64,000 nucleotides of DNA from Flavobacteriales bacterium (GTDB lineage Bacteria > Bacteroidota > Bacteroidia > Flavobacteriales_F > PHOS-HE28), in NCBI GenBank assembly GCA_044224725.1, contig JBGAJW010000016.1, positions 7,055 to 71,054 of the forward strand. The letters are read 5' to 3'. Below the pieces are notes generated by a model. It ran no database searches and was not told where the DNA came from. It saw nothing but the letters and a program-made list of their open reading frames with translations. Position 1 is the first letter of the stretch; the number at the start of each line of letters is the position of its first letter. A program made the position numbers and the translations under genes. Shown one piece after another: positions 1-45,893 of this stretch.

Positions 1-776
1 TCAACAACCTCCTCATCGCTGATGCTGACGGCATCCGCACCATCACCATCAACCGACCCGATCAGCTCAACGCGCTGAACCGTGCCACCATCGCCGAACT
101 GGATCAAGCGCTGACCGAGGCCGATGCCGACAAGGGCGTGCGCGTGCTCATCATCACCGGTAGCGGCCCGAAGGCCTTCGTGGCCGGTGCCGACATCAAG
201 GAGTTCGCCCACTTCGCCGTGGAAGAAGGAAAGGCGCTCGCGGCCGATGGCCAGAAGAAGCTCTTCGACCATGCGGAGCGCATGAGCAAGCCCGTGATCG
301 CTGCGGTGAACGGCTTCGCGCTGGGTGGCGGACTGGAGCTGGCCATGAGCTGCCACATTCGCGTAGCGAGCGACAATGCGCGCATGGGGCTGCCGGAAGT
401 CTCGCTCGGTGTGATCCCCGGTTACGGCGGCACGCAGCGCTTGGCGCGACTGGTAGGCAAGGGAAAGGCCATGGAGATGATCTTCACCGCGGGCATGATC
501 AAAGCCGACGAGGCCCTGCAATGGGGACTGGTGAACCACGTTGTACCACAGGTCGATCTGCTGGCCAAGTGCAACGACCTGGCCGCCGCCATCATGAAGA
601 ACTCACCCACCGCCATCGCCGCCGCCATCCGCGCGGTGAACGCTGGTTATGAACCCGGAGCGGACGGCATGCAACGCGAGATCGAGGAGTTCGGCAAGTG
701 TTTCGGCACGTCTGATTTCAAGGAGGGGACGAGCGCGTTCATGGAGAAGAGGAAGGCGAACTTCACAGGGGCGTGA
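1..776 (+). CDS. Enoyl-CoA hydratase/isomerase (crotonase family), 5'-truncated by the window edge. The frame is open from nt 3 (NNLLIADADGIRTITINRPDQLNALN...).
   Basis: Crotonase motifs are present: oxyanion-hole region AAVNGFALGGGLELAMSCHIRVAS, plus ...GLPEVSLGVIPGYGGTQRL and MIFTAGMIKADEALQWGLVN. The ORF runs to the window start without a stop. Confidence 0.85.
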   Translation, partial: NNLLIADADGIRTITINRPDQLNALNRATIAELDQALTEADADKGVRVLIITGSGPKAFVAGADIKEFAHFAVEEGKALAADGQKKLFDHAERMSKPVIAAVNGFALGGGLELAMSCHIRVASDNARMGLPEVSLGVIPGYGGTQRLARLVGKGKAMEMIFTAGMIKADEALQWGLVNHVVPQVDLLAKCNDLAAAIMKNSPTAIAAAIRAVNAGYEPGADGMQREIEEFGKCFGTSDFKEGTSAFMEKRKANFTGA

Positions 777-1423
777 AAACCTGCTGGATCGACCGACTGG
801 CGACGCCACTTGGGGAGGTGACTTGTGAGCTACTATCTGAGCCACCCGTGGCTGAACGTAACACGGACCAGAGTGTCGCTACCATAGGAGGCTATACGAT
901 CAAGAGCGATCGACAAGCCTTACCGATGGATTGGAATAAGGGAAAGACTCAAGCGCCAGCACTTATCGACGGAGGTTGTTTCTGGCGCTGGGTTTTCATG
1001 CGTACCGGTCCCGGCGAAGCAGAGTTCATCATTCGCTGTGGCCTTAATGCGCACTCGGTGATCTACGACCCAGCGACAGGTGAAGACCTCGCAGCGGTCG
1101 AGTATTGTAAGAAGGAGCAGGTCCTTCACATCGGGACGGAGGATGACAAGTATTTGCGCTATCGCTCCAAGGATGTTTCCGGTGCCTTCCCCCTGCGGTT
1201 TGGAGAATTGCCTTTTGATAGATGGGAGGGCCTATTGGAGGATCTGATACAGCTCAGCGAACAAGGGATCCACCTCGCCGTTCCGAATTTGCGGATAGGA
1301 GAGACCATGTACTTCCATGTGATCGCGGCATATAAACGGACCAACCCTCAACAAGACATATCGACGTGGCTCGCTGTTGACAGGCGTAAAGCCGAACTTG
1401 ATTCATTCGCCCCCTGGCCATGA
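773..1423 (+). CDS. Hypothetical protein of 216 aa with no recognisable domain. It has a GTG start overlapping the upstream stop (GTGA) and lies in a lower-GC segment.
   Basis: Long ORF with normal protein-like composition. The 4-nt overlap with the crotonase stop and the ATGA overlap with the next gene suggest translational coupling. No signal peptide or known motif was recognised. Confidence 0.45.
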   Translation: MKTCWIDRLATPLGEVTCELLSEPPVAERNTDQSVATIGGYTIKSDRQALPMDWNKGKTQAPALIDGGCFWRWVFMRTGPGEAEFIIRCGLNAHSVIYDPATGEDLAAVEYCKKEQVLHIGTEDDKYLRYRSKDVSGAFPLRFGELPFDRWEGLLEDLIQLSEQGIHLAVPNLRIGETMYFHVIAAYKRTNPQQDISTWLAVDRRKAELDSFAPWP

Positions 1424-1809
1424 GCGCCCGCCACAAACTCGCCAGCCGAACGGCCATCTATGGACTCGGTGTTATCATGGCGCTCTTCGTGACCGGTTGT
1501 GGTCGACTGAACGATGATAGACTAGTGGGATGTTGGTGGAACGAAGTGCGACCTGATTACGATATCACAACGTTCTGCTTTCGGCCTGACGGAGATTGGA
1601 GCAGCTCAGGTCCTGACGAGTCGCCTATGCATGGCACGTACGAATTGAGTGGAGACCTCTTGCTTTGGCGTTGGATAGACTCCCGATATGGGCATGACAC
1701 CACTTTCCGTTGCATCATGCACTGGAGCGACGAAGATCACCTTCGTCTTGCGATGAAGCTCGACCCACGACCAGGAGTTGAATTCAATTGGGAGCGCCGT
1801 CCGAAATGA
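1420..1809 (+). CDS. Small predicted lipoprotein (129 aa). Its N-terminus is a diverged duplicate of the N-terminus of the downstream flippase.
   Basis: Signal peptide with lipobox (LFVTGC). The N-terminus MSARHKLASRTAIYGLGVIMA matches the flippase N-terminus MSVLRKLAGQTAIYGLSSIVA. There are ATGA overlaps at both ends. Confidence 0.5.
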   Translation: MSARHKLASRTAIYGLGVIMALFVTGCGRLNDDRLVGCWWNEVRPDYDITTFCFRPDGDWSSSGPDESPMHGTYELSGDLLLWRWIDSRYGHDTTFRCIMHWSDEDHLRLAMKLDPRPGVEFNWERRPK

Positions 1810-3317
1810 GCGTCCTCCGCAAACTCGCCGGGCAAACGGCCATCTACGGGCTGAGCAGCATCGTTGCGCGCTTTCTGAACTTCCTGCTGGTGCCGCTGTA
1901 CACGAGCAAAGGCGTGTTCGAGCCGGCGGACTATGGCGTGGTCACCGCGCTCTACTCGTGGACGGCCTTCCTCAACGTGGTACTCACCTTCGGCATGGAG
2001 ACGGCCTTCTTCCGCTTCTCCATGAACACGCCGTTGCAGCAGCAGAGCGACAACGGGCGAACGATCTACAGCACCGCCACCTATGCGCTGCTCCTCCCCG
2101 CGCTCGTCTTCATGGGCTTGGGCAGCTTGTTCTCCGGCTCCATCGCTGACGCATTGCACTTCCCCGCGTATGCCAGTTCCGTTCTGTTGCTCGTCCTGAT
2201 CATCGGCATCGATGCGCTGACCGCTATCCCCATGGCGCGGCTGCGCCAGCAAGGGAGGCCCTGGAAGTACGCGTTCATCAACATATTGAGCGTGGCGGTG
2301 AACGTGGGCCTCAGCGTGTTCTTCTTCCTGTACTGCATGAAGCGTTACAACGCCGGGGAAAGCACGCCGCTGATCGACCGCGTGTACGATCCGGCGTTCG
2401 GCGTGGGCTATGTGTTCGCCATCAACTTGGTGTCCACCGGGGTGAAATTGCTGGTGCTGCTTCCCGCGTGGCCATCGCCATCGCACTTCCAGAAACAACT
2501 GCTACGGGCCTTGGCCGCCTTCGGTCTGCCCTTGATGATCGCCGGTCTCGCGGGCATGGTGAACGAAACGGCGGACCGCATCATCCTCAAGTACCTGCTG
2601 CCCGCCGATGTCGCCAACGCGCAGATCGGTATCTATGGCGCATGCTACAAGCTGGCGATCCTGATCACGCTCTTCATCCAGGCCTTCCGCATGGGCGCGG
2701 AACCCTTCTTCTTCAGCCACGCGCGTGAGAAGAACAGCGGCGAGACCTTCGCGCGCATCATGAACCTGTTCGTGGCCGTGTGCATGGCGGCCTTCCTCTG
2801 CGTGATGCTCTTCATTGACCTGTTCAAGTGGTTCATCCCGAACCCGGCCTACCACGAAGGCCTACGCGTGGTGCCGATCCTCATGCTCGCGAATGTGTTC
2901 CTCGGCATCTACTACAACCAGAGCGTGTGGTACAAACTCACCAACAAGACCCGAGCCGGTGGGACCATCGCCGTCATCGGTGCCATCATCACGCTCGTGC
3001 TGTTGTTCTCGTTGATCCCGAGCATGGGGTACATGGGCGCGGCATGGGCTACCCTGGCCTGCTATGCGAGCATGGCGGCGATCAGCTACGTGTGGGGGCA
3101 GAAGCACTACCCGGTGCCATACAATGTTGGGCGCGTGCTCACTTACATGGCGGCGGGCGTTTTCATCTGGTGGAGCGCCGAGGCCTCGACCGCGATCAGC
3201 CTGACATTGCCCCACGGCGAGGCATTCAACTATGGTCTGAGAGCCGTCCTGTTGGCCGGGTTCGTCGGCGTCGTTTGGCGGAACGAACGGAGAACTTTGT
3301 CACCTTCGCATGGATGA
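1788..3317 (+). CDS. Polysaccharide biosynthesis protein / Wzx-like oligosaccharide flippase (multi-TM, MOP superfamily). The likely true start is the ATG at 1806.
   Basis: About 500 aa, highly hydrophobic, 12-14 predicted TM segments. N-terminus KLAGQTAIYGLSSIVARFLNFLLVPLYT is typical of Bacteroidota lipopolysaccharide/polysaccharide flippases. The 1806 ATG overlaps the upstream stop (ATGA). Confidence 0.75.
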   Translation: MGAPSEMSVLRKLAGQTAIYGLSSIVARFLNFLLVPLYTSKGVFEPADYGVVTALYSWTAFLNVVLTFGMETAFFRFSMNTPLQQQSDNGRTIYSTATYALLLPALVFMGLGSLFSGSIADALHFPAYASSVLLLVLIIGIDALTAIPMARLRQQGRPWKYAFINILSVAVNVGLSVFFFLYCMKRYNAGESTPLIDRVYDPAFGVGYVFAINLVSTGVKLLVLLPAWPSPSHFQKQLLRALAAFGLPLMIAGLAGMVNETADRIILKYLLPADVANAQIGIYGACYKLAILITLFIQAFRMGAEPFFFSHAREKNSGETFARIMNLFVAVCMAAFLCVMLFIDLFKWFIPNPAYHEGLRVVPILMLANVFLGIYYNQSVWYKLTNKTRAGGTIAVIGAIITLVLLFSLIPSMGYMGAAWATLACYASMAAISYVWGQKHYPVPYNVGRVLTYMAAGVFIWWSAEASTAISLTLPHGEAFNYGLRAVLLAGFVGVVWRNERRTLSPSHG

Positions 3318-3859
3318 GCGGCAACGACATCCAAGCCCTGGACGCGCAGCATCGCAAGCCCTTCCTGCGATGGGTGAAGCGCCGCTTCGGCATCTCTGAG
3401 GCTGATGCGCAGGATGTCTACCAGGAATCGGTGACGGCTTTCGCCCAGCGCGAAACGCAGAACGAGGGTGGCGAATTGGAGTGCCAGCCTTCGACTTTCC
3501 TGTACGCCATCGGCCGCAACCAGACGCTGAAGTTGATCCGCTCGCGCAAAGGAAACGAGAACAGCACCATCGAACTTGACTCAGCCGGTGGCCTGTTCGA
3601 ATTGCCGGAAGTAGAGTCGCTGTTCGACATGGAACATGCGCGTACCGTGGTCCGTGAAGGTCTCGCCCGACTCACCGAACGACAGCGCGAAGTGCTGCGC
3701 CTCTACTACTACGAGGAACGGTCCATGCAGGAGATCGCCACCGTCATGGGCTACAACAACGCGGATGTGGCGAAGAAGATGAAGTACGAGGGCCTCAAGA
3801 AACTGTCCACGTTGATCGTGCGGAGTTGCGCGATCCCGTTCTTTTTCCATGCGTTCTGA
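3314..3859 (+). CDS. RNA polymerase ECF-type sigma-70 factor (181 aa)
   Basis: Region 2 (FLRWVKRRFGISEADAQDVYQESVTAF) and region 4 (LTERQREVLRLYYYEERSMQEIATVMGYNNADVAKKMKYEGLKKL) are both present. The start ATG overlaps the flippase stop (ATGA). The longer ORF beginning at 2828 is an artefactual extension through the flippase 3' end. Confidence 0.85.
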   Translation: MSGNDIQALDAQHRKPFLRWVKRRFGISEADAQDVYQESVTAFAQRETQNEGGELECQPSTFLYAIGRNQTLKLIRSRKGNENSTIELDSAGGLFELPEVESLFDMEHARTVVREGLARLTERQREVLRLYYYEERSMQEIATVMGYNNADVAKKMKYEGLKKLSTLIVRSCAIPFFFHAF

Positions 3860-4577
3860 ACACGCCGATATCGAGCGCATCGAAGCGTATGTGGAAGGCC
3901 GCTTGAGCGATGCCGACCGCCGTGCGTTCGAGGAGCAGCTCGGAACGGACAGCGCGTTGGTGGATGAACTCCATGCCTACCGGGTTATGCGCAAGGCATT
4001 GGTGGATGTGTTCGCGGAAGAACATGAGCGTGCCACGCAGAATGGCAAAGTTGTGCGGTTGAACAACCCTCGAAAGAGCACTTGGCGATGGGCGGTGGCG
4101 GCGGCTGTTTTGCTACTGGCGGGTGCTGGTGCGCGGTACTTGCAGCATGCGAAGGAGTCCCTGCCTGAGCTGGCGGAGCGGTATGTGGTGCATGAATCTC
4201 CGCTGCCTGTGCTCATGTCCGGCCCGGCAGATCACCAGAACGTGCTGGACAAGTCGATGCAACTCTTTGGGGCTGGCCGGTACGATCAGGCCCTTGCTGA
4301 ACTCGAACGGTTACCGGCAAGCGACACGGTCGCGTTCTATGCGGGTCTGTGCGCGGTTGAACTCCATCAAGATCCTTCCACCCGTTTCCAATCGGTGATC
4401 GATGATGCAACGAGCGGCTATCATCCAAAGGCGCTCTATCACTTGATGCTCTGGCAACTGGAACACGATTGGCGAACAGATGCTGTCCACCTGCTCCAAG
4501 AGCAACTGCGCATCAGCGATCATCCGTATCGCCAGCAATTGGAGGCATTGGCTGCTGACAAGGCGCTGCTGCCCTGA
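3849..4577 (+). CDS. Anti-sigma factor: a single-pass membrane protein with a cytoplasmic N-terminal sigma-binding region and a periplasmic C-terminal domain
   Basis: It overlaps the sigma-factor stop by 11 nt. The N-terminus IERIEAYVEGRLSDADRRAFEEQL is typical of RskA/ChrR-type anti-sigma N-domains. One TM segment (WAVAAAVLLLAGAGA) is present. Confidence 0.6.
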   Translation: MRSEHADIERIEAYVEGRLSDADRRAFEEQLGTDSALVDELHAYRVMRKALVDVFAEEHERATQNGKVVRLNNPRKSTWRWAVAAAVLLLAGAGARYLQHAKESLPELAERYVVHESPLPVLMSGPADHQNVLDKSMQLFGAGRYDQALAELERLPASDTVAFYAGLCAVELHQDPSTRFQSVIDDATSGYHPKALYHLMLWQLEHDWRTDAVHLLQEQLRISDHPYRQQLEALAADKALLP

Positions 4578-4580
4578 GCG

Positions 4581-6968
4581 ATGTTCCAACGAACACCGTT
4601 CCCCGGCAAGGTGGTGTTGAGCTTCTTTCTGGCTGTTTGGTTCTGCGCACACAACACAGCCGTCCGCGCGCAGGCCGCATCCGTCTTGCAGCGCGCCGAA
4701 CAAGCCTTGTGCGATGGGGATGACCTCGGCGCGGAACGTTCCTTGATGAAGTTGTTGGCGGAACCAGGGCTTGAAGGCAGCGCGCGATTCGATGCGCTGA
4801 TGCTGATGGCGGAGATCCACTATCAACGATCTGCGCAGGAACAATTCTTGGCCGCTACCGAAAGCGCGGCCAAATTGCTGGGTCCACAGGACGGCCTTGA
4901 ACAGGAATCGTGGGCGCGCGTGGAAACCAACCGTTGCCGCCACGCGTTCTTCGCGATGCAGTACGAGCGTGCGATAGAACTCGGAGAGTCCGCGATAACC
5001 CGCTACCGACGCGCCCCTGACCGGTCGCACTGGAAGAATGCCTTCCGGATCCATCAAGCACTGGCGGCCTCGTACCGCATCGGCACGCCGGAACGGAAGG
5101 GGAAGGTCTTCGCGCACTTCGACACAGCCCTGGCGCTGGCCCATGCACGCACGGACCTCCTGCCCTACTGGGAAGCCGCGATCCAGCGAAGCCTTTCGAA
5201 CGCGGCCATGGACCGCATGCGAAAAGACAATCCAGACCATGTGAAGTGCGCCGACCTCTGCAGGCGCGCACAAACCCAGGCGCTGCGGATCATGGCGCGG
5301 AGCCACCCGAACAATCGGCTGGAGTGCGCGATGCTGATGAACCTGCACGGCTTGTACCTGGTTTACAACGGACAGCCGGACAGCTCCATGAAATGGTTGT
5401 CGAACGCACAGGATCTCATCTCGGAAGATGTGTGGCGCGCACGGGATGAGCGGTTCTTTCCGACCTGGCTCCTCACGCTGCGCTGGAAGGCCTTCGTATT
5501 CGAGGGCGAACCTTGGCGCTCGGATACCGCACTGCTCAATCGCTATTTGGATGAACTGCAAGCGGCGGAACCCTTGTTCACCCGCTATGCCGCCATGCAA
5601 GCCACCGCCAAAGGGCTGTTCACACAGGACCGGTACGACCGTTCACCTTTCCCATCAACACTGGCCGTTTGTCAGCGGCTGTGGGAGCTGACCTTGAATA
5701 CGAGCTACATCGACCATGCATTGCGCACAACGGAAAAAACACGAAGCGACGCATGGAACATAGCGCAGTCGCTTCGGAGTCGGCGAGATCTGATTCTTCC
5801 CGATCCGCCGACAGAAATGTTGTCCTCGATACGGCAGAAGATGGACCCGAACGAAGGCTTGCTGATTTGCGTGGACTATGGCTTGGCACAGGTTGGCCAT
5901 CGCGTTATCACCCTGACCGTGACCGTTGATTCCGTAGACTTCAACGAATGTGGATTCAACTATGACTGGTCCTGTGCATTGGACATGCCACAGCCGCTCG
6001 ATGCGATGAAAGAACGTCGTGCGCTCCACTTGCTATACGACTCGATCTACGCGCCGGCGAAGCACCTGTTGAATGATCGGATCACACGGCTGCGTGTGGT
6101 GAGCACGAACGAGCTTGCCAAGTTGAGTTTCGACGCGTTGCTGGCTGATACCGCTTCCGCTGACATCCGAAAATGTCATCCGCTGGTGGAAGAGCACGCC
6201 ATCAGCTATCCCTACTTCCTGTTGCCCTCGAGCGATGATGGACCCAGCTCCCCCCAACGCGACGGACTGTACTTGGCCCCGACGCGAGGATCAGGGGAAC
6301 TGACGGACTTGACCATGCTGCGCGAAGCCATGGCGTTTTGGCACGAAGGTGTTTTGCCTGGTGATCTGGATAGTTCAGTGACCGATGCGGCTGTCGCGAT
6401 GCAGCGCATGGAACAGACCGAATTCCTGGTGTGGGGTGGACACTGCGGCGGCAACATCTTCATACAGGATGAGCCTGTCAGCAGCTTCTCGACCTCCTTC
6501 ACGGACAGCGCCACGACCTTGTTGCCCAGCCAACTATTGAGTTTGCATCAAGCGCCTTCGTTCGTGGTGCATGCCTCCTGCCAGAGCGGCGTGTTCTATC
6601 CCTACGGCAGTAGCGGTAGCGTCTCGTTCGCCCGCGCCTTCCTGTTCGCCGGATCCCGCACCGTGGTGGCAGCGCAACATGTGGCCGATGAGCGATCCTC
6701 CATCCGGCTATTGGAGCATCTGATGGATGAACTCGCCGACGGACAACCGGCGGACCTTGCTCTTCAACACGCCAAGCTCGCCTACTTGCGAGAAGCCGCT
6801 TCCGCCGAAGACGCACGCCCCTTATACTGGGCCACTTGGCAGGTGTGGGGCGAATGCACTCCGCTGGTACCCGCTGATAAACCCCTACGCCCATGGCCGT
6901 GGCTGGGGGGTGGAGCAATCATTGTGCTTGCTGGAGCCCGCGCATTCCGGAAGCGCAGGAAAATTTGA
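4581..6968 (+). CDS. Secreted TPR-repeat CHAT-domain (caspase-like) protease with a C-terminal TM anchor
   Basis: N-terminal signal peptide, TPR-like helical N-terminal half, and a C-terminal CHAT domain. The catalytic His sits in LVWGGHCGG and the catalytic Cys in FVVHASCQSG. Motifs AGSRTVVAAQHVADE and PLYWATWQVWGE follow. A terminal hydrophobic stretch ends in RKRRKI. Confidence 0.75.
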   Translation: MFQRTPFPGKVVLSFFLAVWFCAHNTAVRAQAASVLQRAEQALCDGDDLGAERSLMKLLAEPGLEGSARFDALMLMAEIHYQRSAQEQFLAATESAAKLLGPQDGLEQESWARVETNRCRHAFFAMQYERAIELGESAITRYRRAPDRSHWKNAFRIHQALAASYRIGTPERKGKVFAHFDTALALAHARTDLLPYWEAAIQRSLSNAAMDRMRKDNPDHVKCADLCRRAQTQALRIMARSHPNNRLECAMLMNLHGLYLVYNGQPDSSMKWLSNAQDLISEDVWRARDERFFPTWLLTLRWKAFVFEGEPWRSDTALLNRYLDELQAAEPLFTRYAAMQATAKGLFTQDRYDRSPFPSTLAVCQRLWELTLNTSYIDHALRTTEKTRSDAWNIAQSLRSRRDLILPDPPTEMLSSIRQKMDPNEGLLICVDYGLAQVGHRVITLTVTVDSVDFNECGFNYDWSCALDMPQPLDAMKERRALHLLYDSIYAPAKHLLNDRITRLRVVSTNELAKLSFDALLADTASADIRKCHPLVEEHAISYPYFLLPSSDDGPSSPQRDGLYLAPTRGSGELTDLTMLREAMAFWHEGVLPGDLDSSVTDAAVAMQRMEQTEFLVWGGHCGGNIFIQDEPVSSFSTSFTDSATTLLPSQLLSLHQAPSFVVHASCQSGVFYPYGSSGSVSFARAFLFAGSRTVVAAQHVADERSSIRLLEHLMDELADGQPADLALQHAKLAYLREAASAEDARPLYWATWQVWGECTPLVPADKPLRPWPWLGGGAIIVLAGARAFRKRRKI

Positions 6969-7049
6969 TCGCATGGCGGGTTACCTCCTGCTCTGGATGG
7001 GTATCAAGCTGTGATACCCTTCCTCCGAACAAACTTGAACCCTTGACCC

Positions 7050-8282
7050 ATGCGCAACCTTTTCGCTCTGTCCGCACTGCTCTTCGCCGTAACCAACCTC
7101 CATGCTCAACCGCCGAATTATGTACCCACAGAAGGGCTCATGGGTTGGTGGCCATTCAGCGGGAACGCGAATGATGAGAGCGGGAATAGTCACCATGGAA
7201 TTTCGGTCGGAGCTACCCTCACAACAGACAGATGCGGGCAGCCCGCAAGTGCATACGCGTTCAACTCAAGTTACATTGAGGTACCGCCGATAGCGGCGAT
7301 CAATGGCATGGATGACTTCGCTTGGTCGGTATGGTTCATGATCGAGGGCAACGCAGCCGAAGAGAGACAGTACTTGGTCGGACGCGGCTGGGACTTCACG
7401 GAGGGCTTCAGCATTTGGCGAGGGAATGATGACCGCTTGGCTTTGATCGTGAACGGGTTCAACGGATTCCAACAATTGTCCGCGAGTCCTGCGGCTCCCA
7501 TCCAAGCGTGGCATCACTTCGTAGCCAATCGTGAGCAAGGTGTCGTCGGCTACTACATCGATGGAGTGCTCGATACGTCTTTCGCCTGCCCAGCGACTGT
7601 GCTCACAAGCACATGGCCAGACTCGCTGTATTTCGGAGCGCACAAGTGGTACAACCAACCGCCCGACTACTTCGAGTACTTCCTCAACGGCAAACTCGAT
7701 GACATCGGTCTTTGGAACCGCGCACTGACCTCTGATGAAATCCAAGCCCTCTACCTCACCGGTTGTGGCCCATGCATCAGCACAACGCCCGTGAGCTATT
7801 CCGGTCTTTCTGCGAGCTACACGACGCTCGACGCTGCTACAACACTTGTCGGAAGTCCGGTCGGTGGTGTCTTCATCGGCTCGGGCATGTCGGGCAGCAC
7901 CTTCGACCCATCCGCAGCAGGCGAAGGGACCCACGGCATCAGCTACACCTATTTGGATTCCAACAACTGCGTGAACACCTACAGCCTATGTACATCAGTG
8001 GTTATCGGAATGGGTCTTGAAGTTCCCCCCCGGACGATGGGGGGCGTTCGCGTTTTCCCGAACCCCAACGACGGCCAGTTCACGGTGGAAATGGAACTGC
8101 TGGGCTTGGTGTCCTTGCAGGTATTCGATGCACGCGGCCGACAAGTTCACAACGAAGTGTTCCAGGGCAACGGCAGCAAGACACAACGCATGCTGGACCT
8201 CTCTGGGCTGGCCAAGGGCGGTTACTCGGTAACCATGCAGAACGCCGGTGCGATGGTCACGCAGCAGGTGATCATTGAATGA
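7050..8282 (+). CDS. T9SS-secreted LamG/concanavalin-A-like jelly-roll lectin domain protein
   Basis: N-terminal signal peptide and a LamG-like core (GLMGWWPFSGNANDESGNSHHG...). The C-terminal roughly 80 aa (VFPNPNDGQFTVEM...GGYSVTMQNAGAMVTQQVII) has the T9SS type-A sorting domain signature. Confidence 0.7.
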   Translation: MRNLFALSALLFAVTNLHAQPPNYVPTEGLMGWWPFSGNANDESGNSHHGISVGATLTTDRCGQPASAYAFNSSYIEVPPIAAINGMDDFAWSVWFMIEGNAAEERQYLVGRGWDFTEGFSIWRGNDDRLALIVNGFNGFQQLSASPAAPIQAWHHFVANREQGVVGYYIDGVLDTSFACPATVLTSTWPDSLYFGAHKWYNQPPDYFEYFLNGKLDDIGLWNRALTSDEIQALYLTGCGPCISTTPVSYSGLSASYTTLDAATTLVGSPVGGVFIGSGMSGSTFDPSAAGEGTHGISYTYLDSNNCVNTYSLCTSVVIGMGLEVPPRTMGGVRVFPNPNDGQFTVEMELLGLVSLQVFDARGRQVHNEVFQGNGSKTQRMLDLSGLAKGGYSVTMQNAGAMVTQQVIIE

Positions 8283-8366
8283 CCTGCGAGAAGGTGGCGT
8301 CCCCTCCACGAGCGTGTTGGTCACGGGCGAGCATCACGTGCCGCAAGGACATGCACCTTTGCGGGC

Positions 8367-8831
8367 ATGAATGACTTCTCGACTGCGCTCGAAGTGACAT
8401 CAGTGAGGATCGTCAACAAAAGCAAACACTCGCTCCCCAACTACGCTACCGCCCACAGCGCCGGCATGGATCTCCGCGCCAACTTGGAAGCATCCATCAC
8501 TTTGGCCCCCGGCGAACGCGCCTTGGTGAAGACCGGCCTCTTCCTGGAACTCCCCGAAGGCACCGAAGCCCAAGTGCGCCCCCGCAGTGGGCTTGCCTTC
8601 AAACATGGCGTTACCGTGCTCAATGCGCCGGGCACCATCGATGCCGACTACCGCGGGGAGGTGGGCGTCATCCTCATCAACCACGGGCAGGAGCCTTTCG
8701 AGGTGAAGGATGGGGAACGCATTGCCCAGTTGGTCATCGCCCGGTACGAGCGCATCACCTTCACGGAAGTAGCTGACCTGTCGGTGTCAGAACGCGGGGC
8801 CGGGGGCTTCGGGCACACTGGAAGGAATTAG
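8367..8831 (+). CDS. dut: dUTP diphosphatase. The likely start is GTG 8394 or GTG 8403, giving about 143 aa.
   Basis: All Dut motifs are present: [51 protein letters not shown] and GFGHTG. Confidence 0.9.
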
Positions 8832-42458: not shown

Positions 42459-45400
42459 ATGCCTATGGCTTCCGACTACAATCTCCTGATCGAAAAGCTG
42501 GATGCCTTCATCCGCAAGTACTACAAGGACCGGCTGATCCGCGGGGCCTTGTACAGCGTTGGCCTGCTGGTTCTCTTTTTCCTGGGCGCATCGCTCAGCG
42601 AGTATTTCGGTCGCTTCGGCACCACGGCACGCACGGTGCTTTTCTGGGGCTTCTTGTTCGTGGCCGCCGGTGTGCTGGCGCGCTTCATCGTTTTCCCGCT
42701 CGTGAAGCTGTTGCACATGGGCAAGGTGATCTCGCATGATGAGGCCGCCGCCATCGTTGGCCAACACTTCGGGGAGGTGAAGGACAAATTGCTGAACACC
42801 TTGCAACTGCGCGAGCAGGCGAACAGCAACTTCATGCAGCGCGAGCTCATTGAGGCGAGCATCGCCCAGCGCAGCCGGGAGCTGTCGCCTTTACCCTTCA
42901 CCGCAGCCATCGATCTGAGCAAGAACCGCAAGTACCTCCGCTATGCCTTGCCGCCATTGGCCGTGCTGCTCGTCCTGCTTTTCGCCGCACCGAGCCTGAT
43001 CACCGATCCGGCCAACCGCATCATCAAACACAGCAGCGAGTTCGCGCCGGATGCGCCCTTCCAATTCACCGTGCTGGACAGCAGCCTCACCGTGCCGGAG
43101 CAGGAGGACTTCGACCTGCACGTGGAAGTGAGCGGCGATGTGATCCCCCAACAGGTGGAACTCGACATCAATGGACAGCGCATCCCGCTGGTGAAACAGG
43201 ACGCCGTCCACTTCACGCACCGCTTCCGCAATGTGCAGGAGGCGATCGATTTCCGCCTCAGCGCCGAAGGCTTCAACAGCAAAGGCTACACATTGGAAAC
43301 CGTGAGCAATCCGATGCTCACCGACCTCGCCTTGCGCTTGGAATACCCGCCCTACCTCGGCATGCCGAACACCACCACGAACGGCAATGGCGATGTGACC
43401 GTTCCCGCCGGTACGCGCATCACGTGGACCGCCAACACGCGCAGCACGGACGAACTCGTGCTGGCGTTCGACGACACGACCTTCTCGCTCGAACCCCAGA
43501 GCGATAACGCCTTCATCGCCTCGCGCCGTTTTTTGCAAAGCCGCACCTACACGCTCGTGCCGCGCAAAGGCGACCGCGCCGCGCAGAACCCCTTGCAGTA
43601 CCGCGTGGATGTCGTGCCCGACCTATACCCCACCATTCTCGTGGAGCAGAAAACGGACAGCACTTCACCCAAGCGTCTCTACTTCAAAGGCGATATCGGT
43701 GATGACCACGGCTTCAAGCGCCTCATCTTCCATTACGGCTTCAGCGAAGGCGGGGACAGTGTGACCACCGAACAACGCGAGGGCACCAAGGAACTTCCCA
43801 TCGATGGCAAGAACACGCGCCAAGAGTTCTTCCATTATTGGGACCTGAGCGATCTGCGACTGGAGCCCGGTGACAAGCTGGAGTACTGGTTCGAGGTATG
43901 GGACAACGACGGTGTGCATGGCAGCAAGAGCGCCCGCAGCGGGACCCAGGTCTTCGAAGCGCCCACGTTGAAGGAACTCGCCGAGAAACAGGACGCCGAC
44001 GCCGAAGCGGTGAAGGACCAGTTGAAGGAGAGCATCAAGGACGCGCAGGAACTGCAGAAGGAACTGGACAAGCTGCGCCGCGAGATGCTGGACAAGAAAG
44101 AACTGAACTGGCAGGACAAGCAGAAGATGGAGAACGTGATGCAGAAGCAGAAGCAGCTGCAGGAGCGGATCGAGAAGACCACCGAGCAGTTCAAGCAGAA
44201 CAACCAGGAGCAGCAGAGCTTCAAGCAGATGGATGAGCGCCTGTTGCAGAAGCAGCAGCAGGTGCAAGAGCTTTTCGAGAACGTGCTGAGCGAGGAGATG
44301 AAGAAGCTCTACGAGGAGGTGCAGAAGCTGATGGAGCAGATGAACAAGGAGGAGCTCCAAGCGAAGATGGAGGACATGAAGATGAGCCAGGAGGACATCG
44401 AGAAGGAGCTGGACCGCGCGATGGAGCAGTTCAAGCAGATGGAGGTGGAACAAAAGGCCGAGGACATCGCCGAGCAATTGGAAAAACTCGCGGAAGAGCA
44501 GAAGAAGCTGGCCGAGGAAACCAAGAACGAGACCGGCGACAACAGCGAACAGAAACAGAAGCAGGAGGAACTGAACAAGGAGTTCGAGGACATCCAGAAA
44601 CAACTGGACGAACTGGAGAAGAAGAACAGCGAGCTGGAGAAGCCCATGGACCTGCCGAAGACGGAGGAGCAGGAAGAGGAGATCAAGAAAGAGCAGGAAG
44701 GCAGCCAGGAGGACATGGAGAAGAAGGAGAACGGCAAGGCCGGTGAGAAGCAGCAGAAGGCCGGTGAGCAGATGGAACAGATGGCCTTCCAGATGAAGAG
44801 CGCGATGGGCGCGAACGAGCAGGAAGAGCACGAAGAGGATATGGACGCTTTGCGCCAACTCCTGGAGAACATCGTGGAGCTGAGCTTCGATCAGGAGGCC
44901 GCCATGAACGATCTGGGCCGCACCGCGCCCAAGGATCCGCACCTGGTGGACATCGGTCGGCAACAGAAGAAGATGCGCGACGACGCCAAGGTCATCGAGG
45001 ACTCGCTCTTTGCTTTGAGCAAGCGCGTGCCCCAACTGCAGGCCGCCGTGAACCGCGAGATGAACGCCGTGAACGAGAATATGGACCAGGCCATGGAGCA
45101 CCTGGCGACCAGTCGTGCGGACATGCGCGGAAAACCCCAAGCGGCGGACAAGCAGCAACGGGCCATGACCGGCCTGAACAACCTCGCACTGCTGCTGGAC
45201 GAAGCCCTTCAGCAGATGCAGGCGGAGCCGCCCCCCGGCCCGCCCGGCAGCGGCAAGTGCAAGAAGCCCGGCGGCAAGGGCAGCAGCGCCGGTGAAAGCA
45301 AGAAGATGGCCAAGACCAAGGCCAACCAGAAGGCCTTGAGCAAGCAGCTCGAAGAGATGAAGAAGGCCTTGGAGAAGGGCAAGAAGCCCGGCGACAAACC

Positions 45401-45893
45401 CGGCCAATCGCCCGGAGAGAAGCCCGGAGCCGATGGCAAGCCGGGCGGAATGGGACTGCCGGGCATGAGCCAGCAACTGGCCCAGCTCGCCGCGCAACAG
45501 GCCGCCATCCGCAAGGAGATGCAGCGCGCGGCGCAGGAACTGAACAAGGACGGCAGCGGTGCCGGACAGCCCCTGCAGAAGCTCGCCGAGGAGATGGAGA
45601 AGAACGAGAAGGACATCGTGAACAAGAACATCACCCAGGAGACCCTGAAACGCCAGGAGGACATCATGGTGCGCCTGTTGGAGGCCGAGAAGAGCGAGCG
45701 CGAACGCGAGCTGGACCAGAAGCGCGAGAGCAACGAAGGCCGCGAGACCCCCCACGCCGATCCCGCCCGCTTCTTCGACTACCAGCGCAACAAACAGCGC
45801 GAGGCCGAACTGTTACGAACAATGCCACCGGGATTGAAGCCCTACTACAAGGCGAGGGTCGCTGAGTATTTCGATACTTTTGGCCGACCCTGA
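42459..45893 (+). CDS. DUF4175-like giant membrane-anchored coiled-coil protein (1144 aa)
   Basis: N-terminus YNLLIEKLDAFIRKYYKDRLIRG is followed by 2-3 TM helices, a roughly 350-aa globular region, and about 600 aa of E/K/Q-rich coiled-coil with a Gly/Pro/Lys low-complexity segment. Confidence 0.5.
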   Translation: MPMASDYNLLIEKLDAFIRKYYKDRLIRGALYSVGLLVLFFLGASLSEYFGRFGTTARTVLFWGFLFVAAGVLARFIVFPLVKLLHMGKVISHDEAAAIVGQHFGEVKDKLLNTLQLREQANSNFMQRELIEASIAQRSRELSPLPFTAAIDLSKNRKYLRYALPPLAVLLVLLFAAPSLITDPANRIIKHSSEFAPDAPFQFTVLDSSLTVPEQEDFDLHVEVSGDVIPQQVELDINGQRIPLVKQDAVHFTHRFRNVQEAIDFRLSAEGFNSKGYTLETVSNPMLTDLALRLEYPPYLGMPNTTTNGNGDVTVPAGTRITWTANTRSTDELVLAFDDTTFSLEPQSDNAFIASRRFLQSRTYTLVPRKGDRAAQNPLQYRVDVVPDLYPTILVEQKTDSTSPKRLYFKGDIGDDHGFKRLIFHYGFSEGGDSVTTEQREGTKELPIDGKNTRQEFFHYWDLSDLRLEPGDKLEYWFEVWDNDGVHGSKSARSGTQVFEAPTLKELAEKQDADAEAVKDQLKESIKDAQELQKELDKLRREMLDKKELNWQDKQKMENVMQKQKQLQERIEKTTEQFKQNNQEQQSFKQMDERLLQKQQQVQELFENVLSEEMKKLYEEVQKLMEQMNKEELQAKMEDMKMSQEDIEKELDRAMEQFKQMEVEQKAEDIAEQLEKLAEEQKKLAEETKNETGDNSEQKQKQEELNKEFEDIQKQLDELEKKNSELEKPMDLPKTEEQEEEIKKEQEGSQEDMEKKENGKAGEKQQKAGEQMEQMAFQMKSAMGANEQEEHEEDMDALRQLLENIVELSFDQEAAMNDLGRTAPKDPHLVDIGRQQKKMRDDAKVIEDSLFALSKRVPQLQAAVNREMNAVNENMDQAMEHLATSRADMRGKPQAADKQQRAMTGLNNLALLLDEALQQMQAEPPPGPPGSGKCKKPGGKGSSAGESKKMAKTKANQKALSKQLEEMKKALEKGKKPGDKPGQSPGEKPGADGKPGGMGLPGMSQQLAQLAAQQAAIRKEMQRAAQELNKDGSGAGQPLQKLAEEMEKNEKDIVNKNITQETLKRQEDIMVRLLEAEKSERERELDQKRESNEGRETPHADPARFFDYQRNKQREAELLRTMPPGLKPYYKARVAEYFDTFGRP

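What the first reader, a model, noticed from the sequence alone, without database searches (positions are those of the whole stretch)
773..1809. Lower-GC two-gene insertion that duplicated the 5' end of the flippase gene
The two ORFs at 773..1423 and 1420..1809 have about 52% GC against about 62% in the flanks. The first 20 residues of the second ORF are MSARHKLASRTAIYGLGVIMA, a clear paralog of the flippase N-terminus MSVLRKLAGQTAIYGLSSIVA that starts only 4 nt after it. The duplicated segment now acts as a lipoprotein signal peptide (LFVTGC). All junctions keep 4-nt GTGA or ATGA overlaps. This looks like insertion of a foreign two-gene cassette into the flippase start with a partial duplication of that start. 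Both products lack recognisable domains. One is cytoplasmic and the other a small lipoprotein, so a toxin/immunity-like or effector pair is possible.
Basis: seen in the sequence. Interest (0 to 1): 0.55.

Follow-up and report, generated by a model that had tools for sequence, protein, structure and literature searches.

The report
Flippase-start stub in a gene-insertion hotspot
The repeat is real: a small lipoprotein gene borrowed its start codon and signal-peptide start from the neighbouring flippase gene. This happened at a spot where related Flavobacteriales keep inserting and shuffling different small genes, each insertion leaving a stub of the flippase start.

Summary
Window 1420-1492 and 1806-1878 are a 73-nt direct repeat, in register with two start codons. 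All three gene junctions are 4-nt overlaps. The region has 54% GC against 61-63% in the flanks.

ORF1 and ORF2 are not one cassette or a toxin/immunity pair, because each occurs without the other in related genomes. The crotonase-flippase junction is an insertion hotspot in a clade of high-GC uncultured Flavobacteriales. The gap ranges from 16 nt to about 1950 nt and holds co-oriented, lower-GC genes. These include ORF1-type proteins, small lipocalin-like lipoproteins such as ORF2, two-TM proteins and ParDE pairs.

At least 20 loci carry one or two extra copies of the flippase 5' end ("F stubs") in front of inserted units. ORF2 and its relatives use the stub as start codon and signal-peptide N-terminus. 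Stub boundaries vary, crotonase 3' fragments are also duplicated, and no recombinase lies nearby.

I therefore favour homology-anchored (HFIR-type) insertion followed by shuffling at the stubs. This resembles Rhs/CDI orphan arrays and Vibrio T6SS immunity arrays. Site-specific recombination is not excluded.

The parts
1..776 (+). 3' part of the enoyl-CoA hydratase (crotonase) gene; conserved left anchor of the hotspot
   Evidence: Pfam ECH_1 E=2e-57. It lies upstream of the flippase in most close relatives and in many distant Bacteroidota.
773..1423 (+). ORF1, 216 aa, with no signal peptide evident in the sequence; an independent insert that fills the crotonase-flippase spacer
   Evidence: Its GTG start overlaps the crotonase stop. 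Homologs of 44-74% identity sit at the same position in L085-L088 without ORF2. The wider family has 254 representatives at E<=1e-3. There is no Pfam or PDB sequence hit. The AF2 model is poor (pLDDT 59) and only suggests a beta-sandwich.
1420..1492 (+). F stub: displaced copy of the flippase 5' end, now codons 1-24 of ORF2
   Evidence: 74% identical over 73 nt and 85% over the first 41 nt to 1806-1878, in register with the start codon. The window is colinear with L085 through crotonase, ORF1 and the flippase start up to about +47.
1420..1809 (+). ORF2, 129 aa: predicted small lipocalin-like lipoprotein. Its start codon and the n-region and part of the h-region of its signal peptide come from the flippase
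1806..1878 (+). Resident copy of the flippase 5' end (F)
   Evidence: Codons 2-8 show almost no synonymous variation across 23 loci that were not selected on this region.
1806..3317 (+). Polysaccharide-biosynthesis/flippase family gene; conserved right anchor of the hotspot
   Evidence: Pfam Polysacc_synt E=5e-13. Orthologs of 61-86% identity are found in L001-L016. Position 1 is always an ATG, GTG or TTG codon at xTGAGCG.

Best explanation
The crotonase-flippase junction is a recombination hotspot in a clade of high-GC uncultured Flavobacteriales. Small accessory genes accumulate there in the same orientation as the flanks, usually with overlapping stop and start codons, so they are probably co-transcribed and translationally coupled with the flippase.

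**History of the window (inferred).**
1. An ancestor had crotonase-ORF1-flippase, as L085-L088 still do.
2. Incoming DNA from a relative carried a lipoprotein gene lying directly upstream of that relative's flippase start.
3. It integrated with its right end anchored by homologous recombination in the flippase gene. Its left end joined inside the recipient's first 60-75 nt of flippase, either illegitimately or through an F stub the donor already carried.
4. The intact flippase start came in with the insert. The old start was displaced upstream as a stub and fused in frame to the lipoprotein.
5. The stub now supplies ORF2's start codon, its coupling to ORF1's stop, and the n-region and part of the h-region of its signal peptide. 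The lipobox Cys and the mature lipocalin-like barrel come from the cassette.

Once a unit is bracketed by F copies it can be moved, excised or re-ordered by ordinary homologous recombination at F. This would explain the combinatorial arrays.

**Shown:** the repeat, the hotspot, the independence of ORF1 and ORF2, the stub arrays, the variable junctions and the predicted fold.

**Inferred:** the recombination mechanism, co-transcription, and signal-peptide function.
For: **The gap is hypervariable.** Crotonase-to-flippase synteny is conserved, but the gap varies from 16 nt (L015) to about 1950 nt (L003) and holds different genes in close relatives.

**Extra F copies are common.** They start at xTGAGCG and occur in WIN, L001, L002, L003, L006, L009, L012, L016, L081, L089, L091, L093, L102, L105, L108, L109, L112, L116, L120, L123 and L133. 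Some are nearly identical to the resident copy: 54/54 nt in L081, 61/63 in L002 and 97 nt at 95% in L003.

**The first stub sits at the ancestral position.** It usually lies about 100 nt after the crotonase stop, which is where the flippase starts in the short-gap genomes L005, L011 and L014.

**Junction positions vary between cassette types.**
- The right end of the stub lies between +20 and about +73.
- The left end of the duplication lies between 0 and -46.

**The mirror-image event exists.**
- In L008 a 141-nt copy (96% identical) of the crotonase 3' end follows ParE.
- In L116 a fragment of about 50 nt of the crotonase 3' end is joined inside a ParD remnant, ahead of a 144-aa gene that sits directly after crotonase in L074 and L128.

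**The same cassette appears in different contexts.**
- The ORF2 type follows ORF1 in the window, the spacer in L081, and a 187-aa gene in L089.
- ParDE lies before or after the lipoprotein (L091 against L081).

**Fused and unfused forms of the same families both exist.**
- Lipocalin-like lipoproteins at L116 2829, L108 4648 and L135 440 keep their own signal peptides.
- The two-TM family is unfused in L102 and L100 but F-fused in L109 and L120.

**No recombinase is nearby.** None appears in the annotated neighbourhoods.

**No hairpin in F.** F folds no better than shuffled sequence, z = +1.2.

**The two window copies may differ in origin.** The stub encodes MSA, like most relatives, while the resident flippase encodes MSV. 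This weakly suggests they came from different lineages.

**Precedent.** HFIR has been proposed for analogous arrays (PMC5361080).
Against: - No recombination intermediate was observed, and the mechanism rests on comparative anatomy alone.
- All stubs share at least the first 20-22 nt. These are exactly the codons (2-8) with almost no synonymous variation, which would also fit a short recombinase core site.
- Experimentally, HFIR is rare (PMC5361080). Yet at least six independent junctions fall within the first 75 nt of one gene, which requires strong selection or a mechanistic bias.
- F is too conserved to tell whether stubs are homogenised with the resident copy.
- Most data are MAG or metagenome contigs. 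However, the same structures recur in independent assemblies: L096-98 are three assemblies 95-96% identical to the window, and L081-84 are four contigs.
Confidence: 0.6

Rival explanations
1. Site-specific recombination. The first 20-25 nt of the flippase gene act as an attachment site for an unlinked tyrosine recombinase of the Xer or integron type. Circular cassettes insert there one after another, as with integron attI, dif/IMEX or SCCmec arrays.
For: - The cassettes are co-oriented, tightly packed and lower in GC, with a repeat between units and TA cassettes present.
- Every stub retains at least nt 1 to about 20.
- Those codons are almost invariant at synonymous sites, including the non-preferred AAA Lys codon.
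- Stub length is cassette-specific: ParDE about +45 to +53, the two-TM family about +38.
Against: - No recombinase gene lies in any neighbourhood examined.
- Repeat length varies from about 20 to 97 nt and sometimes includes 30-46 nt of upstream spacer.
- Crotonase 3' duplications and a junction inside ParD do not involve the putative site.
- F shows no hairpin or inverted-repeat signal.
- Synonymous constraint next to a start codon is also expected from selection on translation initiation.
Confidence: 0.17
2. Local tandem duplication followed by de novo divergence. ORF2 arose in place from a duplicated flippase 5' region and is not an inserted gene.
For: The repeat is tandem-like, with 386-nt spacing and both copies in frame at start codons.
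Against: - Similarity to the flippase stops at about +73.
- The ORF2 mature domain is homologous to lipoproteins that have their own signal peptides at the same locus (L116, L108, L135), and to family members of 31-55% identity in other genomes.
- The model is a complete lipocalin-like barrel.
- The stub differs from its resident copy at the few sites that vary between species.
Confidence: 0.04
3. One reading: one foreign two-gene cassette (ORF1+ORF2) encoding a toxin/immunity or effector pair, inserted in a single event.
For: - The two genes are adjacent, have similar low GC (0.541 each) and overlap by 4 nt.
- True TA pairs (ParDE) do inhabit this hotspot.
Against: - ORF1 occurs alone in L085-88, and the ORF2 family occurs without ORF1 in at least six arrangements.
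- The repeat brackets only ORF2.
- There are no toxin, immunity or defence hits.
Confidence: 0.03

Closest known systems
Orphan-module arrays made by homology-facilitated illegitimate recombination: Vibrio cholerae T6SS immunity arrays (Kirchberger et al. 2017, PMC5361080) and the Rhs / CdiA-CT 'C-terminal displacement' orphans discussed there
   Same: - A conserved gene serves as the homologous anchor.
- Incoming DNA displaces part of the resident sequence, which persists as a remnant.
- Successive events build co-oriented arrays of heterogeneous small genes.
- No integrase is evident.
   Different: - The repeated constant piece here is the 5' end of a housekeeping flippase, not the 3' or constant region of a toxin gene.
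- The displaced piece moves upstream and is reused as start codon and signal-peptide N-terminus of the inserted gene.
- Apart from ParDE, the cargo shows no toxin or immunity signature.
Integron cassette arrays and Bacteroidales rAID-1 clusters (Ross et al. 2019, bioRxiv 10.1101/471110)
   Same: - Co-directional, GC-skewed, mostly orphan small genes.
- A repeated sequence between units.
- TA cassettes among the cargo (my own knowledge for chromosomal integrons).
   Different: - There is no adjacent IntI or XerD-like recombinase.
- The repeats are copies of a coding 5' end of variable length, not attC-like structured sites.
- The array is embedded between two core genes rather than following a recombinase gene.
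Staphylococcus aureus lpl tandem lipoprotein cluster (Tsuru & Kobayashi 2008, PMC2568036)
   Same: A conserved nucleotide segment inside each unit acts as a site for homologous recombination that shuffles lipoprotein gene units. The evolutionary unit spans gene boundaries.
   Different: The lpl units are paralogs of one family with a central conserved region. Here the units are unrelated genes, and the shared segment is borrowed from the neighbouring essential-looking gene.
Small Bacteroidetes lipocalin-like lipoproteins (BT_0869 / PDB 3hty, BACOVA_00364 / 4gzv, potempin E / 8ehc)
   Different: Sequence identity is only 14-17%, there is no Pfam match, and no ligand or inhibitor function can be assigned.

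Membership tests
HFIR-type displacement / orphan arrays | Variable modules lie beside a conserved anchor gene, co-oriented with it | tested here: met
   Nearly all inserts are on the flippase strand between crotonase and flippase; the one minus-strand gene called in L091 is alternatively read on the plus strand.
HFIR-type displacement / orphan arrays | Displaced units keep a remnant of the anchor's conserved sequence | tested here: met
   F stubs precede cassettes in at least 20 loci. Crotonase 3' remnants occur in L008 and L116.
HFIR-type displacement / orphan arrays | The non-homologous junction falls at different positions in different events | tested here: met
   The stub ends between +20 and about +73. 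The duplication starts between 0 and -46. One junction lies inside ParD.
HFIR-type displacement / orphan arrays | RecA-dependent anchoring with microhomology at the illegitimate joint | not testable with these tools
   One fused/unfused pair (L109 against L102) showed only an ambiguous CGGGC microhomology by eye.
Integron | An adjacent intI integrase with attI and Pc | tested here: not met
   The neighbours are a histidine kinase, crotonase, flippase, dCTP deaminase and an NTP transferase.
Integron | attC sites: imperfect palindromes that fold as hairpins between cassettes | tested here: not met
   F and the stubs fold no better than shuffles, with z from -0.3 to +1.35. No inverted repeats flank ORF2.
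rAID-1 (Bacteroidales) | [quoted passage not shown] | tested here: not met
   The low-GC co-directional genes are present. There is no recombinase and no immunity-family hit.
Integrase-mediated island with att duplication | An integrase gene in the element, and fixed-length att repeats at both ends | tested here: not met
   The 386-nt unit holds only the ORF2 body. Repeat lengths vary from 20 to 97 nt among loci.
Transposon / IS with target-site duplication | A transposase, terminal inverted repeats and a short TSD of fixed length | tested here: not met
   There is no transposase ORF, no terminal inverted repeats, and the duplications are long and variable.
Toxin-immunity / effector pair (ORF1+ORF2) | Obligate co-occurrence of the two genes | tested here: not met
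   ORF1 occurs alone in L085-88. ORF2-type genes occur without ORF1 in L081, L089, L091, L093, L108 and L130.
Toxin-immunity / effector pair (ORF1+ORF2) | A recognisable toxin or immunity domain | tested here: not met
   Pfam, NCBIfam and PADLOC give no hit. ORF1 has no match in the plasmid collection.
Bacterial lipocalin-like lipoprotein (ORF2) | An eight-stranded antiparallel beta-barrel | tested here: met
Bacterial lipocalin-like lipoprotein (ORF2) | A signal peptide with a lipobox Cys that is lipidated | not testable with these tools
   The V-T-G-C27 motif follows a basic n-region and a hydrophobic stretch (seen in sequence). A Cys lies about 10 residues before the conserved LVG-W motif in both fused and unfused relatives. 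No predictor or experiment was available.
Bacterial lipocalin-like lipoprotein (ORF2) | A sequence match to a curated lipocalin-like family | tested here: not met
   No Pfam or NCBIfam hit at E<=1 and E<=0.1 respectively.

The most novel reading that the evidence does not exclude
The arrays are a recombinase-free, integron-like gene-capture platform. The first 20-70 nt of a conserved, probably essential flippase gene act as a universal, portable homology arm. Any gene bracketed by F copies can then be inserted, excised and re-ordered upstream of the flippase of any species in the clade. On arrival it obtains transcription, a coupled start codon and, for exported proteins, a ready-made signal-peptide N-terminus.
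Probability: 0.3. Interest if true: 0.7.

Novelty: new variant of a known kind. Interest (0 to 1): 0.5.

Why it matters
This is a clear natural example of how newly acquired genes get expression and export signals. They are spliced into the first codons of a conserved gene and reuse its start codon and first transmembrane segment, while the incoming DNA restores the host gene.

If the stubs really work as portable homology arms, this is a simple recombinase-independent route to cassette shuffling in uncultured Flavobacteriales. It would extend the displacement-array idea from toxin loci to housekeeping operons.

It also has a practical consequence. Short N-terminal similarity between neighbouring genes can mark recombination scars, and gene callers miss such genes. 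No ORF2 gene appears in the gene table for the 95%-identical contig L096.

Tried and rejected
- **Known RNA families.** Rfam with a permissive threshold found nothing on window 600-2000 or on the L016 spacer and element.
- **Promoters and terminators.** The sigma-70 and terminator scan of 1-3500 found no promoter and only two chance-level terminator-like sites inside the flippase. Bacteroidota promoters are not covered by this scan.
- **Hairpin or attC-like structure in F.** None was found.
- **Defence and plasmid links.** PADLOC gave no hits for ORF1, ORF2 or four other cassette proteins, and ORF1 has no match in the plasmid collection.
- **ORF1 function.**
  - The profile search found a large unnamed family.
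  - The members have no shared Pfam domain and no sequence relative in the PDB.
  - The cluster look-up gave only 'hypothetical protein'.
- **Concerted evolution test.** I tested whether each stub is closer to its own resident F than to other species' F. It was uninformative because F is nearly invariant and my extent measure was circular.
- **Biased first estimate.** A first synonymous-diversity calculation was biased by loci that had been selected on the F motif. I repeated it on 23 unbiased loci.
- **Other hotspots.** A search for other stub-type repeats in the window found none.
Full report
**1. What is in the window.**
The first 3.3 kb carry four co-oriented genes joined by 4-nt stop/start overlaps:
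- The 3' part of an enoyl-CoA hydratase (crotonase) gene, up to 776, Pfam ECH_1.
- ORF1 at 773-1423, 216 aa.
- ORF2 at 1420-1809, 129 aa.
- A Polysacc_synt-family flippase at 1806-3317.

The overlaps are GTGA at 773, ATGA at 1420 and ATGA at 1806.

The repeat is confirmed. Positions 1420-1492 and 1806-1878 are 74% identical over 73 nt and 85% over the first 41 nt, in register with both ATGs. It is essentially the only such repeat in the 64-kb window.

GC of 773-1809 is 54.2%, against 63.1% for crotonase and 61.0% for flippase. That puts it in the lowest 1.1% of equal-sized windows. GC3 is 0.57-0.59, against 0.83-0.86 in the flanking genes.

**2. Related genomes change the picture.**
A scan of one genome per species returned flippase orthologs from uncultured, mostly high-GC Flavobacteriales MAGs, with 61-86% identity for L001-L016.

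Crotonase lies upstream of the flippase in nearly all of them, and also in many distant Bacteroidota. The gap between the two genes ranges from 16 nt (L015) through about 100 nt (L005, L011, L014) to about 1950 nt (L003), and its content differs between close relatives.

ORF1 and ORF2 are independent:
- ORF1 homologs (44-74% identity) sit alone between crotonase and flippase in L085-L088. They show the same overlap with the crotonase stop and no flippase duplication.
- An ORF2 homolog (P0003) sits in L081-84 without ORF1 and is followed by a ParD/ParE pair.
- Further ORF2-family members (P0010, P0011, P0012) sit at the same locus in yet other combinations.
- Three independent assemblies 95-96% identical to the window (L096-98) carry the same ORF1-ORF2 arrangement, so it is not an assembly artefact.

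The window is colinear with L085 through crotonase, ORF1 and the flippase start up to about +47. It is colinear with L081 through the ORF2 body and the next flippase-start copy. The window therefore looks like an L085-type arrangement into which an ORF2 unit was inserted.

**3. The repeat is one instance of a recurrent pattern.**
I call the flippase 5' end 'F' (xTGAGCGYCCTCCGCAAACTCGCCGG...). One or two extra F copies occur upstream of the resident one in:
- L001, L002, L003, L006, L009, L012, L016 and L081;
- L089, L091 and L093;
- L102, L105, L108, L109, L112, L116, L120, L123, L130 and L133, among the loci found by a metagenome scan for the F motif.

Some copies are nearly identical to the resident F: 54/54 nt in L081, 61/63 in L002, 97 nt at 95% in L003 and 79 nt at 96% in L016.

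The first stub usually lies about 100 nt after the crotonase stop. That is where the flippase begins in the short-gap genomes, so it is the original start left behind.

Units that begin with an F stub include:
- several subfamilies of small lipoproteins (ORF2, P0002, P0003, P0010-12, L001 118 aa, L123 117 aa);
- a two-TM protein family (L109, L120, L093);
- ParDE modules, preceded by a short stub ORF ending at a stop codon;
- a 314-aa protein (L002);
- a 242-aa propeller-like protein (L003);
- truncated ParD fusions (L003, L102);
- a conserved non-coding element (L009, L012).

The same families also occur without a stub. Lipocalin-like lipoproteins with their own signal peptides are found at L116 2829, L108 4648 and L135 440. 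Two-TM proteins without a stub are found in L102, L100, L107, L111, L124 and L125.

In 34 of 34 loci with an insert of at least 300 nt, the insert has lower GC than its flanks, mean 0.537 against 0.624.

**4. Mechanism.**
Several observations argue against a precise site-specific process:
- The right end of the stub varies between cassette types, from about +20 to about +73.
- The duplicated segment sometimes includes 30-46 nt of upstream spacer.
- In L008 a 141-nt copy (96%) of the crotonase 3' end follows a ParDE insert. This is the mirror image of the F duplication.
- In L116 a crotonase 3' fragment of about 50 nt, travelling with a 144-aa gene that directly follows crotonase in L074 and L128, is joined inside a ParD remnant.
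- No recombinase or transposase gene lies in any neighbourhood examined.
- F has no hairpin signal and ORF2 has no flanking inverted repeats.

These features fit homology-facilitated illegitimate recombination. Donor DNA of the form [X - F - flippase...] anchors by homology in the flippase. Its other end joins upstream at a non-homologous point.
- If that point lies inside the recipient's F, the recipient keeps F(0..y) as a stub, and the donor supplies an intact F.
- In-frame joints give F::X fusions. Other joints leave short stub ORFs.
- This needs only a simple replacement between y and the homologous crossover.

After that, units bracketed by F can be transferred, excised or re-ordered by ordinary homologous recombination. 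This explains why the same cassette, with the same stub length, appears in different upstream contexts. ParDE in L081 against L091, and ORF2 types after ORF1, after the spacer or after a 187-aa gene, are examples.

The same mechanism has been proposed for V. cholerae T6SS immunity arrays and for Rhs/CDI orphan modules (PMC5361080).

One caveat stands. All stubs keep at least nt 1 to about 20, and codons 2-8 of the flippase are almost free of synonymous change in 23 loci not selected on this region. Codon diversity there is 0.037, against 0.267 for codons 22-72, p=0.002. Lys6 is always AAA in a genome that otherwise prefers AAG. This could be selection on the translation start, since the region is less structured than shuffled sequence. 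It could equally be a short recombinase core site. I therefore keep site-specific recombination as a live rival at about 0.17.

**5. The two gene products.**

*ORF2.*
- The AF2 model (pLDDT 76) has an N-terminal helix followed by an eight-strand barrel.
- The sequence has a basic n-region (from F), a hydrophobic stretch (partly from F) and V-T-G-C27.
- A Cys lies about 10 residues before the conserved LVG-W motif in both fused and unfused relatives. So the lipobox belongs to the cassette, and the joint lies between about +60 and +78.
- The ORF2-family profile hits flippases only through this N-terminus.

*ORF1.*
- It has no signal peptide evident in the sequence and a conserved N-terminus that begins at the crotonase stop.
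- It belongs to an unnamed family of about 210-230-aa proteins, with 254 representatives at E<=1e-3.
- The family has no Pfam or PDB sequence relatives.
- Its model is poor (pLDDT 59), so the beta-supersandwich hits are only a hint.
- I cannot assign a function to it.
- Nothing supports a toxin/immunity relationship between ORF1 and ORF2.

**6. Origin of the window's two F copies.**
At the few sites that vary between species, the stub differs from its own resident F. The stub has codon 3 GCC (Ala), as in most relatives. The resident has GTC (Val). They also differ at the Gly9 and Tyr14 codons. This weakly suggests that the two copies come from different lineages, as HFIR or import would predict, and not from a recent in-place duplication. 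The closest relatives by flippase identity (L001, L111, L124, L129; 86-88%) carry other cassettes. ORF1 and ORF2 relatives are found in lineages with 75-81% flippase identity. This patchy distribution fits exchange or rapid turnover.

**7. Verdict.**
It is wrong about a single two-gene toxin/immunity cassette. The feature is a new variant of a known kind: a displacement or orphan array made by homology-anchored recombination, here at the 5' end of a housekeeping gene with capture of its N-terminus. Interest is moderate at 0.5. The recurrent reuse of an essential gene's first codons as start and export signal for unrelated cargo is neat and testable. The mechanism remains inferred, and the cargo functions are unknown.

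Noticed in passing
window 3177-8408: A 5.2-kb block is absent from the 95%-identical strain L096, where the flippase is followed directly by dCTP deaminase. The block holds an ECF sigma factor, a putative anti-sigma protein, a CHAT-domain protein, and a Laminin_G_3 protein with a T9SS sorting domain. The last ~45 aa of the flippase also differ between the two strains. This is a second variable spot, at the flippase 3' end, with no duplication found.
   Followed up: partly
L016 5955-6000; also L003, L009, L012, L074 just upstream of the flippase start: Tandem CCATCCGTGT motifs (three copies in L016) lie inside a conserved non-coding element of about 150-200 nt. In L009 (5827) and L012 (5817) a degenerate F stub precedes the element. 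There is no Rfam match. Its function is unknown.
   Followed up: partly
window 1809-1829 (flippase codons 2-8) and orthologs: Synonymous variation is almost absent here, with non-preferred codons fixed (Lys6 AAA, Gly15 GGG, Val20 GTT) across 23 loci. The region folds less stably than shuffled sequence. This could reflect a translation-initiation constraint or a recombination core site.
   Followed up: partly
L008 2438-2578; L116 3524-3571: Partial duplicates of the crotonase 3' end lie inside the arrays. The L008 copy is 141 nt at 96% identity and follows ParE. The L116 copy is about 50 nt and is joined within a ParD remnant.
   Followed up: yes
L001, L006, L008, L012, L081, L091, L105, L112, L133 (gap between crotonase and flippase); L089 2290-2589; L010 753-1197: ParD/ParE toxin-antitoxin pairs recur as cargo of the hotspot. 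L089 has a ParE upstream of crotonase, and L010 has a weak RelE-like pair. Remnant ParD fusions occur in L003, L102 and L116.
   Followed up: partly
L096 10423-10812: ORF2 is intact in this contig (100% protein identity), but no gene appears there in the contig's gene table. ORF1 is listed only as a 141-aa C-terminal fragment (P0007). Gene callers seem to miss or truncate these overlapping cassette genes.
   Followed up: no
window 44015-45624: E/K/Q-rich coding repeats with a 21-nt period (15 copies) lie inside the 1144-aa ORF 42459-45893.
   Followed up: no
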